DNA of 64,000 nt. Source: Octopus vulgaris. Taxonomy: Eukaryota. Positions within the stretch are counted from its first letter, which is position 1, and each line of letters begins with the position of its first letter. The DNA is taken from the NCBI GenBank assembly GCA_951406725.2, contig OX597825.1:4650001-4714000 (forward strand). Direction: 5' to 3'. Below are positions 1-57,000 of the stretch, piece by piece. Position numbers: made by a program.

Positions 1-3000
1 GAAGAGCGATTAAACCAACATTTGCACGAAGATTCTTGTCAAACAACAAGGGACCTGGCAGAGAAAATGGAATGGTCTCACACTGCTGTAAAAAAGCATC
101 TTCAGTCGATGGGAAAGGTTCAGTAGTATGGAGCATGGGTTCTGTATGCTTTAAATGACAACAACAACCTTCAACGAGCCAAAATCTCAGCTGGTTTGCT
201 TGCTCGTGGACGCGTGCTCATGGACACAAGCAAGGATTTCTTTACTGAATCGTTACTGGCGACAAAAAATGGTGCCTGTTCATCAATATGAAGCAGCGTA
301 AGGTATGGCTTAGCCTCGGTAAACAAGCGACACCACGCGTGAAGCAAGATCTTCATCCGCGTAAAACGATGTTCTGCGTATGGTTTGACTGGGAAGGGAT
401 TATCCATTACGAATTGCTTAAACGGACCCAAATGGTCAACACGGAACTGTATGCTCCACAGATGGAACGACTCAACCTCCCTATTCAAGAGAAAAGACCT
501 AATCGGCAGCATGGAGTTCTTCTACTGCATGACAACGCCCGCCCTCATATCGCCAGTATGACCAAAAAAGCCATTCAAACGCATGGCTGGGAAGTTCTGC
601 CACACCCGCCGTACTCTCTTGATTTAGCACAAACGGATTTCAACCTCTTTCGATCTCTTTCGAATGCTATGCGCTGAATTTCGTTCAATACTGATGCAGA
701 ATTGAGAGTATGGTTGAATCAATTTTTCGAGTTGGAATCGGGTGATTTCTACCAACAAGGTAATGGAAATCTTGTTGAACTTTGGGAAGAAGTTGTAAAC
801 AACAAGGGTGAATACATTATTTATTAATTAGTTGTTATTTTAATTAACCCGTTAAAAAATTTAAATTTTAAAGACGGGGGGAACTTTGATGCCAGCCCAA
901 TATATATAGGTATGTATGTAAGTATGTATGTATGTATATATATGTATGTATGTGTATATATATATATATATATAAGCGAGAATGAAGCAACAAGAATGGA
1001 TAGGTTTTTAGTACAATCGTTTCATACAAGGACAGGTTTTATTAAAAGTTGCAAAAATTACAGCATATAAACGTGTCCCGTACTCATCAGCTAAAATACA
1101 TGTGAGTTCTCTAGACATCCTAGTGGTTGAGGCTATACTCATGAAGTAATGTAGATAATTAAGTAACATAAACAGATTTCAAAAGTTCATTAAAGTTCTT
1201 TAAAGATGATGTACAGTCTTATCACAGAATTTTAAAAAATTCCTGCTTATTAGCATTACAGAGAGGGTGAATTAATCCTTTGTATAGATGCACAATTTCC
1301 AATGGTGTAGGTGTAATTCACCTACCCTCTCTGTAATGCTAATAAGCAGGAATTGAAACCCACCTCGTTGTAATTAACAATGGATAAATTTGTCTTCTGT
1401 GAGTATGTAATCCCTCATCATATCTCTGGAAATTCATATGTGCACTATGGATTAGGTCACCTTCTCTGTGATGCTATTAAGACTTTTTTTAAAATTCTGT
1501 GATAAGACTGTACATCATCTTTAAAGAACTTTAATGAACTTTTGAAATCTGTTTATGTTACTTAATTATCTACATTACTTCATGAGTATAGCCTCAACCA
1601 CTAGGATGTCTAGAGAACTCACATGTATTTTAGCTGATGAGTACGGGACACGTTTATATGCTGTAATTTTTGCAACTTTTAATAAAACCTGTCCTTGTAT
1701 GAAACGATTGTACTAAAAACCTATCCATTCTTGTTGCTTCATTCTCGCTTATAATCACCCCACATTACTGTATTGTTAAATCAGTATAGTTTTCTTTGGT
1801 GCATCTAAGTTAGGTACCATATCCAAGTAAATTCATTTAAATTAACTTGAATCTTTATTGCTTTTTGTATATATATATGTATATATATATACACCTTTAT
1901 ATTTTCGTTTTGCCAGGTTCTTGATCTGAATTCGAGTGTTAAAGCAGATATTGTTGTACTTGGGGATCGTCATGTTTCCAATTTAGCTAATGAAAACACA
2001 AGCACTATGTATTTTGGTGTTTACTCGCTTCAGCTTTATTTCATATTAATTGTATTTCGGCCATAGTTCTTTCGTCACGCGTCTGTGACCTCGTCAGTGG
2101 TCCTTTGCTAACGATCGTTAGTAAGGAAAGACACAAAGAAAGGAGGAAGCAATGGACCACTGATGAGGTCACCAAATATAGCGGCAGAGGCCTGAACAAC
2201 AATGAGCTTGTCTCACAGGGAACGTTTCCTGTGTCTCTTTTAGGGACATCCTTATACTTATAATATAAAACCTCATTAATACACGTCCGTATATTGTTCA
2301 GTTAATTTCATTTGCGAGTGGTATACACATTTAAAGGAAATGAGATGAAACGAAGAATTAAACATTTCAATATAAGAATGAAATCACGAAATGTTAAATA
2401 CTTATTTCTTTATAAGTATGTTTTAAAAAAACCGTCATTCGTAAGCGTCGCATCGATGTCTTTGTCTTTTAAACAACACTTGATATTTTCCTTTATCCAC
2501 TTCTCCATTTTAAGATACATTACAATTTTAACCTCGGTAGACGTGGATATGTGGTGAACATTATAGTTTGTTGAGGAGAAATGAAACATGATATTCATAT
2601 CTTGCTGCTAATGTATGTGAAAATATTGTTCCAACCTGGACGTGAAACCGAGTTACTTTTCACATATAGATTTACTCTCCTCTTTTCAGATGTATCCGCT
2701 TTCGTATATATTGCAGTAGTCGCCGAAAAATTGAGCTTGTGGTTGACGTCAAATGAACAGTGTTCACAAATTTATTTCGATTTTTGGTGTTTCATTTAGC
2801 TTTAACAGATTTATTCCTTGTACATTTCTATAAGCAGACATTTACAATTTAACAAATGTGAAAAAAATAACGATATTTCTAATCTATTATATAAATAACT
2901 ATTGGAACTGTCAGTCTAGAGTGTAAATGCTACGAGACAAATGCAAAAAATAAACGAAACCACTCCAGCGTGTGTCGAATGATTTATAGAAAGTATAAAT

Positions 3001-54000: not shown

Positions 54001-57000
54001 ACGGAACCTCGGCAGTGATGAATATCCAAGCGAAATGTATACTGCAGGCTACTTTTCAGGCCAATGGTATCTTGATTAAATGAAAGGAGTACCTCGTAAG
54101 GAGGTACATGTCAACACACGGACGATTAAATCAGAATCGTCTGTGTGTTCGCATTCTGATCGAATCGTCCGTGTGTTAACATGTACTCCCTTAAGACATT
54201 GTAAATTTCATTTGATGAAGATACGCTTGGCCTGAAGAATAGTCTCCAGTTTACACGTCGCTTGGATATTTACCACTTCCAAGGTTCCGCTCGCTGTGAA
54301 ACATATGTATCCCGGATATGATTTACTCCATTCCTTAACTCTTGTATTTTAATCGCATACCTGGCAACCCTGCTCGCTTAATGTGAAATATAAAACTTTT
54401 TTCTTTCTTTTCTTTTTGAGCTGACCATACTCCGATACAGAAAAAATCTACAAACCTTCCACCTCAATAAAACTTTATTGTTCCTGAAAATTGTTGTTTT
54501 ATATTTTCTACGGTTTACTTGAAGCTAACCTTCTTCCTACAGCTCGATCCTTGGATCTTACATCTATATTTATATAAATAAATATATAAGCTGATAGATA
54601 TATAAAACCGACGAATTGAAAGCTATCGTGATATGAAAGTGTCTAACACCAGAGATTCTATATCTGATGCTTGACAGCACAGGTTAATTTGAATAAGTTT
54701 ACGTAAGTTTATGTGTGGGTATTTCTATGATTATGTGTGCATATATCTATATATGTTTCTATGAATATGCATACGGACTATATTTCCTTGTATATCTCTA
54801 TGCGTTTGTGTTATTGTTGTCTATGTATTTGTGTAACTGACTCTCCCGTCAACGTATGAGTCTTCAGCGAGATAACAAAAAAAACACACACATCGAACCA
54901 AATAGACAATCAATAACACATAATATTATTACTACTATTCAACAATGCTTACGATTCACTGACTTCACCTGGTGACACCGCATGTGAGCCCTCGGGCCAC
55001 CAAAAGCAATATGGATATGAGCATGACTTATTAAACCAATACTTGGCCTGGCTGAGGAATCACAATGTGGAGAATAGTGGTATGCATCTATCTATGCATA
55101 CATGCATGTATGTATATGTATGTATGTATGTGTATGTATGTATGTATGTATGTATGTATGTATGTATGTATGTATGTATGTATATATGTATGTATATGTA
55201 TGTATGCATGTATGTTTGTATGTATGTATGTATGGATGGATAGTTGGATGGATGGATGAATGTATGTATGTACGTATATGAAGTAACACTCTCTCAAAAT
55301 CGGACACACAGACACATCGTCGCACGAACATCAGCGGTGTGCAATTTCACATTTTTTAAATATATATCAGCGAAATATTATATATCTGAGAATACAATAC
55401 AATTTAACAGGTGGCGGTGCTTGTGTCTTATGGATTTGAAATATAATGAATAACGAAAATATATGTATGTGTGTCTATATATACATATATATAAGCATGA
55501 GTATATGTGTCCATAAATCTATATATATATATATCGTATACATATACCATATATATATATATATAACCCTAGGTCTGTTCGACCAAAGGTTATAGTTGAA
55601 AACATTCGCCCATGTTCCTACGCTGTGAGGTTGAACCTAAGGCCCCATTTTTGGAAGGGGAATTTCCTACCACATAGCAACAGCTGCATACATACATACA
55701 TACATACATGCATACATACATACATGCATACATACATACATACATACATACATACATACATTCATACATACATACATACATACATACATACATACATTCA
55801 TACATACATACATACATACATACATACATACATACATACATACATACATACATACATGATGTCCGTCCACTCGTGACTGAGGATGACCATTGCTGACCTT
55901 CAGGAACATTCAGGAACCAAGTTTTCACCATTCACTACACCAGCAGCGCGCTTTCGAGCGGCACGCTTAAGTTCTCCATGCTGAATACGTGCTCCCTTAA
56001 AGGTGTCGACCCCCTTCTTAACCTGATTCCTCCTTCTGTGGCGATGACAGGCATTGCTCTCCCAGCCAGTCTCCTGCATATCACAGGCCTTTAATGAGGA
56101 TTTGACGCAGTCCTTAAATCGCAGCCTTGGTTTCTGCCGGGGTCTCTTTCCATTCACAAGTTCTCCATATAGCATCTGCTTGGGGATCCTGCTATCCTTC
56201 ATTCTAATACATACAGACATACAGACATACATACATGTATTCACTCATTCAGGTATGTTTAATTATACGCGTTTATTATTGTAATACAAGTAGAGAGTGT
56301 GTAATTCTTCTTTATATTAGAGGTATGCGGGCGCTGAACATATAAGAGTATATAGGAGCGCTATACGTGTGTATATGTGTGTATGTGTGTGTTTGTGCGT
56401 GGTTTGTGTGATCTGTGTATGTTTTATATGTGTGTTGTTTTTGTGTGTGTGCGTATATTGTGCATTGTGTATTGTATGTGATTGTTTATGAAGACGTGCG
56501 TGAAATATCGGTGCGTGTTCCCTTAAGAGATGGTTTTAATGAAGTGGTCAGCCATTTCACTGCAGACCATTACGAGAAGCGGTACTTAATGAGATACTTT
56601 TCAGAAATCAATAAACTTGCTACCTTAGTAGCAGCGGCACCAGCTGCAGCAGCAGCGATGGGAGCAGAAGCCGGTGATGATGATGATGATGATGATGATG
56701 ATGATGATGACGACGACGACGATGACGATGCTGAGGAGGATGAAAACGACGATGATAATGATGATGATGATGATGATGATGATGATGATGATGATGATGA
56801 TGACGATGCTGAGGAGGATGATAATGATGTTAATGATGATGATGATGATGACGACGACGACAATGATGATGATGATGATGATGATGATGATGAAGACGGT
56901 GGTGACGAGGATAATGAAGATTAAGATGATGGTGATACCGAAGATGACGATGATGATAACGACGGTGATGACAATAACGAGGAGGAGGAGGAGGAGGAGG

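What the first reader, a model, noticed from the sequence alone, without database searches (positions are those of the whole stretch)
971..54360. Repeated ORF-less fold-back mini-elements, all tails-outward, from different PLE families
Seen: six short inverted units (971-1867, 1948-2172, 19600-19880, 31889-32088, 41050-41362, 53930-54360). Using the HHR as a strand marker, the 3' ends always point outward, as in the large element. In most units one arm has an extra unpaired tail, and in three it ends in (TA)n. Inference: these are extremely 5'-truncated PLE insertions in which the nascent cDNA folds back and is copied. If identical junctions recur genome-wide, they would instead be a self-propagating non-autonomous ribozyme-hairpin class. 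Transcription from either strand would give a long dsRNA hairpin containing one sense HHR.
Basis: partly seen in the sequence, partly recalled or inferred. Interest (0 to 1): 0.72.

Follow-up and report, generated by a model that had tools for sequence, protein, structure and literature searches.

The report
Head-to-head Penelope retroelement stubs in octopus
These short inverted repeats are truncated, back-to-back copies of the tail ends of Penelope-like retrotransposons inserted into (TA)n microsatellites of an octopus genome, a known by-product of how this element class integrates rather than a new kind of element.

Summary
The six units are real. Five are strong inverted repeats. U2 is inverted only by homology to the large element. 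The window is Octopus vulgaris-like and holds one coding Penelope-like element (PLE; RT + GIY-YIG) whose 3' region is repeated upstream in inverted orientation. U2 belongs to that family. U3 and U5 are distant relatives over hammerhead and tail. U1 and U4 are related, and U6 has the same hammerhead layout as U1.

Rfam finds no hammerhead. My own descriptor finds complete ones only in U1 (both arms), U2 (left arm) and S7, an extra unit that is not a fold-back. U3 and U5 carry core variants with a compensated C3-G8 pair. U4 and U6 are decayed.

All seven inverted units have their 3' ends outward. Four of six have a one-sided extension that is homologous between families. The (TA)n is the target site, not part of the element.

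Each of these features is already described for PLEs. Priming of reverse transcription from both cut target strands fits better than simple cDNA snap-back, which the large element, U2 and U5 contradict. Genome-wide recurrence could not be tested. Verdict: ordinary PLE insertion products, new members of a known kind.

The parts
59865..63377 (-). Stop-to-stop ORF of the large PLE (LE), 1170 aa: low-complexity N-terminal third, then RT (YVDD), a CX4CX2C linker and GIY-YIG with two internal Cys. The main copy's 5' end lies at about 63357-63359.
   Evidence: Pfam on residues 400-1170: RVT_1 E 1.3e-3 and GIY-YIG E 2.3e-3, both below the curated cut-offs. 115 homologues; the best is 99% identical and named from Octopus vulgaris.
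59180..59864 (-). LE 3' untranslated region, ending in the short form directly against (TA)n. HHR at 59350-59297 with A9 changed to C.
   Evidence: 61.7 bits; the MFE fold shows helices I and II.
63358..64000 (+). Inverted, 5'-truncated copy of the LE 3' region, head-to-head with the main copy. It runs off the window. HHR at 63858-63911. The junction carries TGCA at 63356-63359.
   Evidence: 99.07% over 643 columns; 637 matches, 1 mismatch.
971..1867 (.). U1: left copy 971-1239 (sense on the - strand, HHR 1090-1012); complex spacer 1240-1484 with three copies of a ~35-nt motif; right copy 1485-1753 (sense on the + strand, HHR 1634-1712); tail 1754-1867. (TA)n on both sides.
1893..2172 (.). U2: left copy 2107-1948 plus tail 1947-1893 (sense on the - strand, HHR 2107-2054); right fragment about 2104-2172 (sense on the + strand), which stops inside helix II. 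It shares the (TA)n at 1868-1892 with U1.
   Evidence: 58.9 bits.
19605..19880 (.). U3: left copy with tail (sense on the - strand, 19808 down to about 19605) carrying a U3-A8 variant HHR at 19816-19766; right copy 19809-19880 (sense on the + strand) without HHR and without tail. It is nested in a weaker outer palindrome, 19504-20016.
   Evidence: 47.7 bits.
31879..32088 (.). U4: tight palindrome centred at 31961.5 (TGATCA). The left copy ends in (TA)n before the GAAA box. The right copy carries a 50-nt extension, 32039-32088. The cores are decayed (31930-31924 on -, 31995-32001 on +).
   Evidence: (U1-U4L z 6.1).
41050..41362 (.). U5: arms 41050-41162 / 41176-41287, 13-nt loop, tail 41288-41362 followed by (TA)n. 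G3-C8 variant HHR in both arms (41170-41114 on -, 41168-41224 on +).
   Evidence: (54.2 and 51.5 bits).
53930..54360 (.). U6: arms 53930-54137 / 54153-54360 (81% identical), complex 35-nt centre, no tail. HHR boxes are in the right order (core 54232-54238 on +; GAAAC-AUAU-GUA), but helix I is not formed. The left-arm core has G8 changed to A.
   Evidence: Not found by the descriptor, the model or the MFE fold.
20538..20868 (+). S7: solo, non-inverted PLE stub between two (TA)n tracts, with a complete U3-A8 variant HHR at 20747-20777.
   Evidence: 37.8 bits; self-inverse z -0.5.

Best explanation
WHAT THEY ARE. The units are dead-on-arrival insertion products of several families of Penelope-like retrotransposons in an octopus genome.

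HOW THEY FORM.
1. The element's RT-endonuclease cuts a (TA)n microsatellite.
2. Both 3' ends of the break prime reverse transcription near the 3' end of element RNA. Each starts at one of two alternative sites, so a copy comes with or without the 'tail'.
3. Both cDNAs stop early.
4. Their 3' ends are joined head-to-head by microhomology or a template jump.
The result is two 5'-truncated copies with 3' ends outward. The arms are identical at birth and then decay. Internal priming by the second strand gives the U2 layout.

SHOWN HERE: PLE origin, orientation, tail homology, the (TA)n flanks and the range of arm ages.
TAKEN FROM PUBLISHED IN-VITRO WORK ON A LIZARD PLE, NOT SHOWN HERE: both-strand cleavage and extension, and the two start sites.
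INFERRED: the joining step. The near-equal truncation in U4-U6 remains unexplained.
For: PLE LINK
- The ORF has RT, a CX4CX2C linker and GIY-YIG.
- U2 matches its 3' region at 77-81% in both orientations.
- U3 and U5 align with U2 over HHR plus tail (z 10.4, 9.4 and 4.5 against 60 shuffles each). U1 aligns with U4 (z 6.1).

HHR STRUCTURE IN THE LE GROUP
- 80% of 60 cells pair, against 22-41% when the partners are slid.
- The C3-G8 pair is CG in 2, GC in 2 and UA in 2 of 6 distinct sequences.

ORIENTATION: 7 of 7 inverted units have tails outward.

TAIL
- It is element-encoded and optional. It is homologous in U2L, U3L and U5R.
- It is absent from the LE 3' end and from U3R, which both stop at the same word.

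(TA)n: 8 of 15 unit ends lie within 5 nt of a (TA)>=4 run, against 7% of window positions.

AGE: arm identity ranges from 100% to 81%, which indicates separate events over a long time.

LITERATURE
- Inverted 5'-truncated copy, one-sided 30-40-bp tail and (TA)n bias: PMC8557442 (passages).
- A PLE protein cleaves and extends both strands and starts at two adjacent internal sites that bracket the tail: PMC11167929 (main text read).
- Dual min-HHRs 100-700 bp apart on opposite strands in Schistosoma mansoni: PMC4209133 (parts 1-2 of the text).
Against: - U4, U5 and U6 are palindromic almost to the centre (loops of about 10, 13 and 35 nt). Two independent truncations should rarely coincide so closely.
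- The tails here (50-114 nt) are longer than the published 30-40 bp.
- The U5 left arm and the U4 left arm do not stop at the shared short-form word.
- Only U2 is close to a coding element. For U1, U4 and U6 the PLE link rests on HHR layout, tail asymmetry and (TA)n flanks alone.
- Rfam recognises none of the HHRs.
- The (TA)n test is partly circular, because I placed some ends at the microsatellite border.
- The biochemical support comes from a lizard Poseidon element, not from an octopus element.
Confidence: 0.6

Rival explanations
1. A single cDNA primed at one target end stops early, its 3' end folds back on itself, and RT copies the cDNA outward. The unpaired tail is the part that the return synthesis did not reach.
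For: U4, U5 and U6 are palindromic to within 10-35 nt of the centre. U4's centre is a 6-nt self-complementary word. In U3 the tail and the extra 5' sequence sit on the same copy, as this model requires.
Against: - LE joins a 4.2-kb copy to a copy of at least 0.64 kb that covers a different part of the element.
- In U2 the tail-bearing copy is the shorter one at its 5' end, and the other copy lacks the 3' part.
- In U5 the loop resembles family sequence on the tail-less strand, so the tail-bearing copy is not the longer one. This inference is weak.
- U1 and U3 have spacers of 245 and 61 nt.
- The short-form end is at the same word in LE and U3R.
Confidence: 0.2
2. The hairpin units are themselves a propagating non-autonomous class. 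A short RNA, for example one started in the terminal repeat just upstream of the hammerhead, is copied to its defined 5' end and mobilised in trans by PLE protein, so the junctions are fixed.
For: In the LE-related group, 4 of 9 copies (U2L, U3L, U5L, U5R) end 2-16 nt upstream of the HHR core. The tight centres of U4-U6 would follow from a defined RNA end. Tandem HHR repeats (retrozymes) have been proposed to be non-autonomous PLE derivatives (bioRxiv 10.64898/2026.07.22.740005, abstract and passages).
Against: - No unit has a second copy in the 64-kb window. The model built from the LE-group HHRs finds only its seven training sequences.
- Arm identities of 81-93% in U3-U6 indicate old, decaying single events.
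- Breakpoints differ among related copies: 10 nt, 45-54 nt, about 510 nt and at least 209 nt upstream of the core, plus one full-length copy.
- The clustering was noticed after the fact on a small sample.
Confidence: 0.1
3. They are MITE-like non-autonomous DNA transposons or fold-back elements with long terminal inverted repeats that insert at TA.
For: Long inverted repeats. TA-rich flanks would fit a TA target of Tc1/mariner elements. A mariner transposase fragment lies at 249-677. The window also holds palindromes without any HHR.
Against: - No target-site duplication is visible at U5 or U6.
- One-sided tails break the terminal symmetry.
- U2, U3 and U5 are homologous to the 3' region of an RT-encoding element.
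- HHR boxes lie in the arms with a compensated core pair.
- The flanks are long microsatellites, not a TA dinucleotide.
Confidence: 0.04
4. Part of the picture is secondary. The perfect U1 arms reflect arm-to-arm gene conversion or an assembly error rather than a very recent insertion.
For: Identity drops abruptly from 269 of 269 to 37 of 48 at the inner arm border. Published work warns that PLE inverted structures cause assembly problems (PMC8557442, passage).
Against: LE arms are also near-identical (637 of 638) beside an intact ORF, so young insertions do exist here. The other units show ordinary decay.
Confidence: 0.06

Closest known systems
Complex tandem/inverted insertions of Penelope-like elements (Craig et al. 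2021, PMC8557442, and earlier work cited there)
   Same: High 5' truncation; an inverted 5'-truncated copy adjacent at the 5' end; an extension ('tail') at one end only; (TA)n insertion bias; HHR in the terminal repeat region.
   Different: Here both copies are cut down to 70-320 nt, so no ORF remains. The tails are 50-114 nt rather than 30-40 bp. No partial tandem (pLTR) is visible in this window.
Dual min-HHRs on opposite strands, 100-700 bp apart, in Schistosoma mansoni (Cervera & de la Pena 2014, PMC4209133)
   Same: Pairs of PLE-type hammerheads close together on opposite strands, attributed to truncated PLEs. An unpaired base between positions 9 and 10.1, long helix II, short helix I and the U3-A8 core covariation all recur here.
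   Different: In the parts of the text I read, that paper gives no anatomy of the pairs. Here the arms, junctions, tails and targets are mapped. One family has G3-C8. Another group has a ~60-nt helix II insert.
In-vitro mechanism of the Anolis Poseidon element PAc (Frangieh et al. 2024, PMC11167929)
   Same: Cleavage and extension of both target strands; a preference for AT-rich targets; two adjacent internal start sites whose interval equals the tail; the HHR lies about 90-120 nt upstream of the insertion end.
   Different: A different clade and host. The paper does not show head-to-head products or how the two cDNAs are joined.
Rearranged Penelope copies with long inverted repeats that yield siRNAs in transformed Drosophila (PMC3681739)
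   Same: Inverted PLE repeats as a dsRNA source.
   Different: Those were long internal repeats in fresh transgenic insertions. No small-RNA data were available here.
L1 5' inversions by twin priming
   Same: The second target strand primes internally on the RNA, giving an inverted 5' segment with a small overlap at the junction. U2 (23-nt overlap) fits this.
   Different: Twin priming on one RNA does not give long complementary arms such as those of U1 and U3-U6.
Non-LTR retrozymes (PMC7229834; bioRxiv 10.64898/2026.07.22.740005)
   Same: Short, ORF-less, HHR-bearing sequences related to PLE terminal repeats.
   Different: Retrozymes are head-to-tail tandem repeats that give circular RNAs. 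These units are head-to-head.

Membership tests
Penelope-like element, canonical C-terminal EN+ type (large element) | Single ORF with RT followed by a C-terminal GIY-YIG endonuclease | tested here: met
   YVDD motif, then GIY-YIG-like motifs, in the translation. Pfam RVT_1 E 1.3e-3 at residues 319-416 and GIY-YIG E 2.3e-3 at 666-711 of the 771-aa part, both below the curated cut-offs. 115 homologues at E<=1e-3, some carrying RVT_1.
Penelope-like element, canonical C-terminal EN+ type (large element) | [quoted passage not shown] | tested here: met
   Read directly in the translation: CX4CX2C upstream, and two Cys between the GIY and YIG words. Clade names are from PMC8557442 (passages). No phylogeny was made, so 'Neptune-like' is an inference.
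PLE insertion signature (the six units) | Inverted 5'-truncated copy, head-to-head, with 3' ends outward | tested here: met
   6 of 6 units and LE. S7 is a solo copy.
PLE insertion signature (the six units) | Optional tail extension at one end only | tested here: met
   U1, U3, U4 and U5, plus U2. The tail is homologous in U2L, U3L and U5R and absent from the LE 3' end and U3R. Lengths of 50-114 nt exceed the published 30-40 bp.
PLE insertion signature (the six units) | Homology to an RT-encoding element | tested here: inconclusive
   Met for U2 (77-81%). Distant for U3 and U5. No coding relative in the window for U1, U4 or U6. The genome could not be searched.
PLE-type minimal hammerhead (Cervera & de la Pena 2014) | Core boxes CUGANGA and GAAA, an H17 site, and helices I and II | tested here: inconclusive
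   Met in U1 (both arms), U2L and S7. LE has A9 changed to C. U3 and U5 have compensated cores but no clear helix I. U4 and U6 are decayed.
PLE-type minimal hammerhead (Cervera & de la Pena 2014) | An unpaired base between positions 9 and 10.1, and a G10.1-C11.1 pair | tested here: met
   Column 20 is G in all 7 rows. The pair 21-39 is GC in 6 of 6 distinct rows. S7 is better read without the bulge.
PLE-type minimal hammerhead (Cervera & de la Pena 2014) | Self-cleavage | not testable with these tools
   Needs transcription and cleavage assays.
Rfam hammerhead families | Score at or above the family gathering threshold | tested here: not met
   No match at gathering score. None among the 150 listed of 479 matches at E<=10 (329 lower-scoring matches were not shown). 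None among 23 matches on 975-2300.
Non-LTR retrozyme | Head-to-tail tandem repeats, each with an HHR | tested here: not met
   All pairs are head-to-head. The model finds no tandem partner. The best extra hit is 15.8 bits, E 0.1, at 20683-20726.
MITE / fold-back DNA transposon | Symmetrical terminal inverted repeats flanked by a target-site duplication | tested here: not met
   One-sided tails. No duplication at the U5 or U6 flanks. Flanks elsewhere are microsatellite, which hides any duplication.
Twin-priming type inversion | An inverted 5' segment and a direct 3' segment from adjacent parts of one RNA, with a small overlap or deletion | tested here: inconclusive
   U2 fits: LE positions about 59386-59328 inverted, 59350-59180 direct, 23-nt overlap. 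The other five units have long overlapping arms.

The most novel reading that the evidence does not exclude
The mini fold-backs are not random truncations. They are run-off copies of short RNAs that begin a few bases upstream of the hammerhead, for example from a promoter in the terminal repeat, and both target strands copy them to that defined end. This would make them a discrete, trans-mobilised, hairpin-forming PLE derivative. With families of different ages, it could contribute to the unusually high load of long near-perfect dsRNA reported for octopus (PMC5625713, passages), and so to A-to-I hyper-editing and small-RNA substrates.
Probability: 0.12. Interest if true: 0.65.

Novelty: new member of a known kind. 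Interest (0 to 1): 0.3.

Why it matters
These units are a compact natural record of how PLEs integrate, a step that published work calls undefined. Each unit stores two start sites, two stop sites and one junction. A genome-wide catalogue could separate both-strand priming from snap-back without biochemistry.

They are easy to mis-annotate as MITEs or microRNA-like hairpins. Here, Rfam microRNA models gave sub-threshold hits on them.

If transcribed, they are ready-made dsRNA in a genome known for heavy RNA editing.

The three versions of the core pair (C-G, U-A, G-C) among related families suggest that the ribozyme core was under selection.

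Tried and rejected
- Rfam scans found no hammerhead. Searches covered the whole window; one search covered 975-2300 with lax filters. The top hits were microRNA models on TA/TG-rich palindromes, all below gathering score, and I treat them as spurious.
- Pfam on 15 long ORFs found no RT. The RT and GIY-YIG appeared only weakly after the low-complexity N-terminus was removed.
- blastn among arms linked only U2 to LE. 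Smith-Waterman alignment with shuffles was needed for the distant links.
- MAFFT of the U1/U4/U6 HHR regions did not align the U4 core. I first placed the U4 core at the palindrome centre, then corrected it to 31-33 nt from the centre using the alignment and the helix II pairing.
- MFE folds do not recover an HHR in U6. They are no better than shuffles for any HHR, so folding energy is no evidence either way.
- A covariance model built from seven LE-group HHRs found only its own training sequences. It adds no new copies.
- An idea that U2L carries a 31-nt deletion or a spliced intron was dropped. The sequence there is better read as the start of the right copy.
- Self-complementary words at junctions (TGCA, GATC, TGATCA) are too few to test.
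- A search for 'hammerhead ribozyme' plus 'G3-C8' listed one paper, on another topic judging by its title. I make no claim that a natural G3-C8 core is new.
- One paper search by mechanism terms gave nothing on PLE junctions.

Full report
SETTING

The window has no N and is about 35% G+C. It is rich in TA and TG microsatellites: 179 runs of (TA)>=4 cover 4.9% of it.

The only long ORF with retroelement features is 59865-63377 on the minus strand. Its C-terminal 770 residues give weak Pfam matches to RVT_1 and GIY-YIG in that order, both below the curated cut-offs. The whole 1170-aa ORF gave nothing at E<=0.01, probably because of its N/S-rich first third. The translation shows YVDD, a CX4CX2C linker, and a GIY-YIG core with two internal cysteines. 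A homologue search found 115 proteins. The best is 99% identical and is named a hypothetical protein of Octopus vulgaris. So the window is octopus-like, and the 'large element' (LE) is a canonical endonuclease-bearing Penelope-like element (PLE). By its linker it is probably Neptune-like; I made no tree.

THE LARGE ELEMENT

The region after the stop codon (59845 down to 59180) ends directly against (TA)n. The same 640 nt occur inverted at 63358-64000 (99%; 637 matches and 1 mismatch), abutting the 5' end of the ORF-bearing copy. This is a 4.2-kb copy joined head-to-head to a copy of at least 0.64 kb that runs off the window, with both 3' ends outward.

THE SIX UNITS

Self-inverse alignment scores for U1, U3, U4, U5 and U6 exceed every one of 100 shuffles (z 20-200). 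As RNA these five would fold into long hairpins on either strand (z -9 to -60 against 30 shuffles each).

U2 differs. Its arms share only 25 nt (score 40, shuffled maximum 41), and it would not fold as a long hairpin. Even so, 1948-2107 matches the LE 3' region in one orientation and 2117-2172 matches it in the other.

tblastn with 40 of the 116 PLE proteins held found no coding remnant outside the ORF.

HAMMERHEADS (HHR)

Rfam did not report a hammerhead:
- at gathering score;
- among the 150 listed of 479 matches at E<=10 on the whole window (329 lower matches were not shown);
- among the 23 matches at E<=10 on 975-2300.

A descriptor of my own required the core boxes, helix II of at least 4 bp, helix III of at least 1 bp, H17 and helix I of at least 4 bp. 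It allowed one bulged base after A9 and the compensated cores U3-A8 and G3-C8. It found four cores: both U1 arms, the U2 left arm, and a site at 20747-20777. The mean in 100 first-order Markov random windows was 0.35, and none reached four.

An alignment of the LE-group sites shows the features published for PLE minimal hammerheads (PMC4209133, parts 1-2 read):
- a base between positions 9 and 10.1;
- G10.1-C11.1 in 6 of 6 distinct rows;
- helix II 80% paired;
- a C3-G8 pair that is C-G in LE and U2, U-A in U3 and S7, and G-C in both U5 arms.

Overall, 80% of cells pair, against 22-41% with slid partners. The sample is only six distinct sequences, and the structure was drawn from them.

Status of each hammerhead:
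- LE has A9 changed to C.
- U3 and U5 lack a convincing helix I.
- U4's core is decayed in both arms. Its left copy ends before the GAAA box.
- U6 keeps CUGAAGA and GAAAC-AUAU-GUA in order in the right arm. It was not found by the descriptor, the model or the MFE fold.

So the hammerhead is a usable strand marker in U1 and U2. It is a homology-supported one in U3 and U5, and a weak one in U4 and U6.

FAMILIES

By blastn only U2 is close to LE. Local alignments with shuffles link U2L to U3L (z 10.4), U3L to U5R (z 9.4) and U2L to U5R (z 4.5), over both hammerhead and downstream sequence. They also link U1R to U4L (z 6.1). U6 shares only the U1-type layout: a ~60-nt insert in helix II and a 2-bp helix III with a 4-nt loop. 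'Different families' is therefore right, in two architectural groups.

ORIENTATION, TAILS AND TARGETS

All six units and LE have their 3' ends outward. With two possible orientations, seven of seven has probability 1/128 by chance.

One-sided extensions exist in U1 (114 nt), U3 (about 75), U4 (50) and U5 (75). The extension is element sequence: U2L, U3L and U5R align across it. The LE 3' end and the U3 right arm both stop at the same word just before it. This matches the optional 'tail' of PLEs (PMC8557442, passages). A lizard PLE starts reverse transcription at two adjacent internal sites that bracket the tail (PMC11167929, main text read).

(TA)n lies at 8 of 15 unit ends, including tail-less ends, the LE 3' end and one side of S7 (the other side is 7 nt away). 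Only 7% of window positions lie that close to such a run. Some ends were set by me at the repeat border, so the test is partly circular. U1 and U2 share one (TA)n tract. The (TA)n is thus the target, as published for Neptune and Naiad PLEs (PMC8557442, passages).

A COUNTER-EXAMPLE

S7 (20538-20868) lies between two (TA)n tracts, has a complete U3-A8 hammerhead and has no inverted repeat. Of eight PLE-derived units in the window, seven are head-to-head and one is solo.

MECHANISM

Simple snap-back predicts tight loops and predicts that the tail-bearing copy is the one that continues into the loop.
- Against it: LE, which pairs non-equivalent regions.
- Against it: U2. The tail-bearing copy ends 10 nt upstream of the core. 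The other copy ends 45-54 nt upstream and stops inside helix II.
- Against it, more weakly: U5. The 13-nt loop resembles family sequence on the tail-less strand.
- Not tight: U1 and U3, with spacers of 245 and 61 nt.
- For it: the near-perfect centres of U4, U5 and U6, and U3, where the tail and the extra 5' sequence share a copy.

Published in-vitro work shows that a PLE protein cleaves and extends both target strands (PMC11167929). Priming from both strands, with the second primer sometimes annealing internally as in U2, accounts for every layout here. It does not explain the near-equal truncation in U4-U6. I rank it first (0.6) and snap-back second (0.2).

Arm identities run from 100% (U1) and 99.8% (LE) to 93, 89, 85 and 81%. 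This points to separate events spread over time and to neutral decay afterwards.

UNEXPLAINED

- In the LE-related group, 4 of 9 copies (from 3 of 5 units) end 2-16 nt upstream of the hammerhead core. I noticed this after the fact.
- U1's identity falls from 269 of 269 to 37 of 48 at the inner arm border, next to three copies of a ~35-nt motif.

WHAT IS KNOWN

- Inverted 5'-truncated copies, one-sided tails, (TA)n bias and assembly trouble are described for PLEs (PMC8557442).
- Paired min-HHRs on opposite strands 100-700 bp apart are mentioned for Schistosoma mansoni and attributed to truncated PLEs. The same paper describes the U3-A8 covariation (PMC4209133). Covariation of C3-G8 to U3-A8 in nature is also reported in PMC3088659 (passages).
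- The C3G/G8C double mutant partly restores cleavage (PMC11167929).
- Inverted Penelope repeats that yield siRNAs are reported in flies (PMC3681739, passages).
- An O. vulgaris repeat annotation lists PLE families and a PLE expansion. The passages returned for my search terms mention no hammerheads or hairpins (PMC13282606; counts for 'hammerhead' and 'hairpin' were 0).
- Octopus has an exceptionally high share of loci that can form long dsRNA, and Penelope is the heavily edited LINE-class repeat in a lizard (PMC5625713, passages).

LEFT OPEN

Recurrence of junctions, copy numbers and empty sites therefore stayed unchecked. Supplements of the cited papers were not opened.

VERDICT

The PLE attribution is right. 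The proposed snap-back is not the best-supported mechanism. The phenomenon is a known property of PLEs, seen here in new octopus families.

Noticed in passing
20538-20868: A solo PLE stub (S7) between two (TA)n tracts, with a complete U3-A8 variant hammerhead at 20747-20777 and no inverted partner.
   Followed up: yes
41154-41184, 19800-19806, 20747-20753, 2091-2097, 59297-59350: Related families carry three versions of the hammerhead C3-G8 core pair: C-G (LE, U2), U-A (U3, S7) and G-C (both U5 arms). U-A is published. I found no passage on a natural G-C version, but I searched only once.
   Followed up: partly
2107, 19808, 41162, 41176: In the LE-related group, 4 of 9 copies end 2-16 nt upstream of the hammerhead core. 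This could be a defined RNA 5' end or an RT stop. It was noticed after the fact on a small sample.
   Followed up: partly
1240-1484: The U1 spacer holds three copies of a ~35-nt motif (1240-1275 forward; 1316-1352 and 1450-1484 reverse). Arm identity drops from 269/269 to 37/48 at its border. Possible causes are gene conversion, repeated template jumps or an assembly error.
   Followed up: partly
9525-9646; 43238-43355; 57730-57845; 51812-51908 with 52314-52409; 19504-19604 with 19885-20016: Palindromes centred on (TA)n with no hammerhead or PLE link. Some give sub-threshold Rfam microRNA hits (mir-5014, 90.6 bits against a threshold of 101). U3 appears to have inserted into the TA centre of one of them.
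   Followed up: partly
2084-2174: The U2 hairpin matches the Rfam model of mir-1992, a microRNA family, at 32.2 bits (threshold 70), E 2.8e-5 in a 1.3-kb search. The shared letters include the hammerhead helix I and core word. It is not a member, and the match may be chance.
   Followed up: no
62180-63377 (- strand): The first ~400 residues of the LE ORF are mostly N/S/T-rich low complexity with no Met before about residue 43. The main copy is probably 5'-truncated at the junction, or it carries an expanded repeat in frame.
   Followed up: no
7035-7243; 20946-21097; 33008-33260; 40796-41047: Copies of a ~250-nt dispersed repeat (72-90% identical) that looks like a tRNA-derived SINE by eye. The left end of U5 abuts one copy.
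   Followed up: no
249-677: An ORF fragment matching the mariner-type Transposase_1 domain (E 1.4e-20).
   Followed up: no
24000-28000: A strongly purine-skewed block (GC skew 0.53-0.65, AT skew 0.44) with long spurious ORFs on the minus strand.
   Followed up: no
21515-21767 with 23027-23278: An inverted repeat of 254 nt (89%) with arms 1259 nt apart. It belongs to another repeat family, with copies at 32794-32896 and 38564-38681. No significant hammerhead was found by my model.
   Followed up: no
63356-63359; 2113-2116; 31959-31964: Head-to-head junctions sit on short self-complementary words (TGCA, GATC, TGATCA). This is expected if two cDNA 3' ends anneal to each other, but there are too few cases to test.
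   Followed up: no
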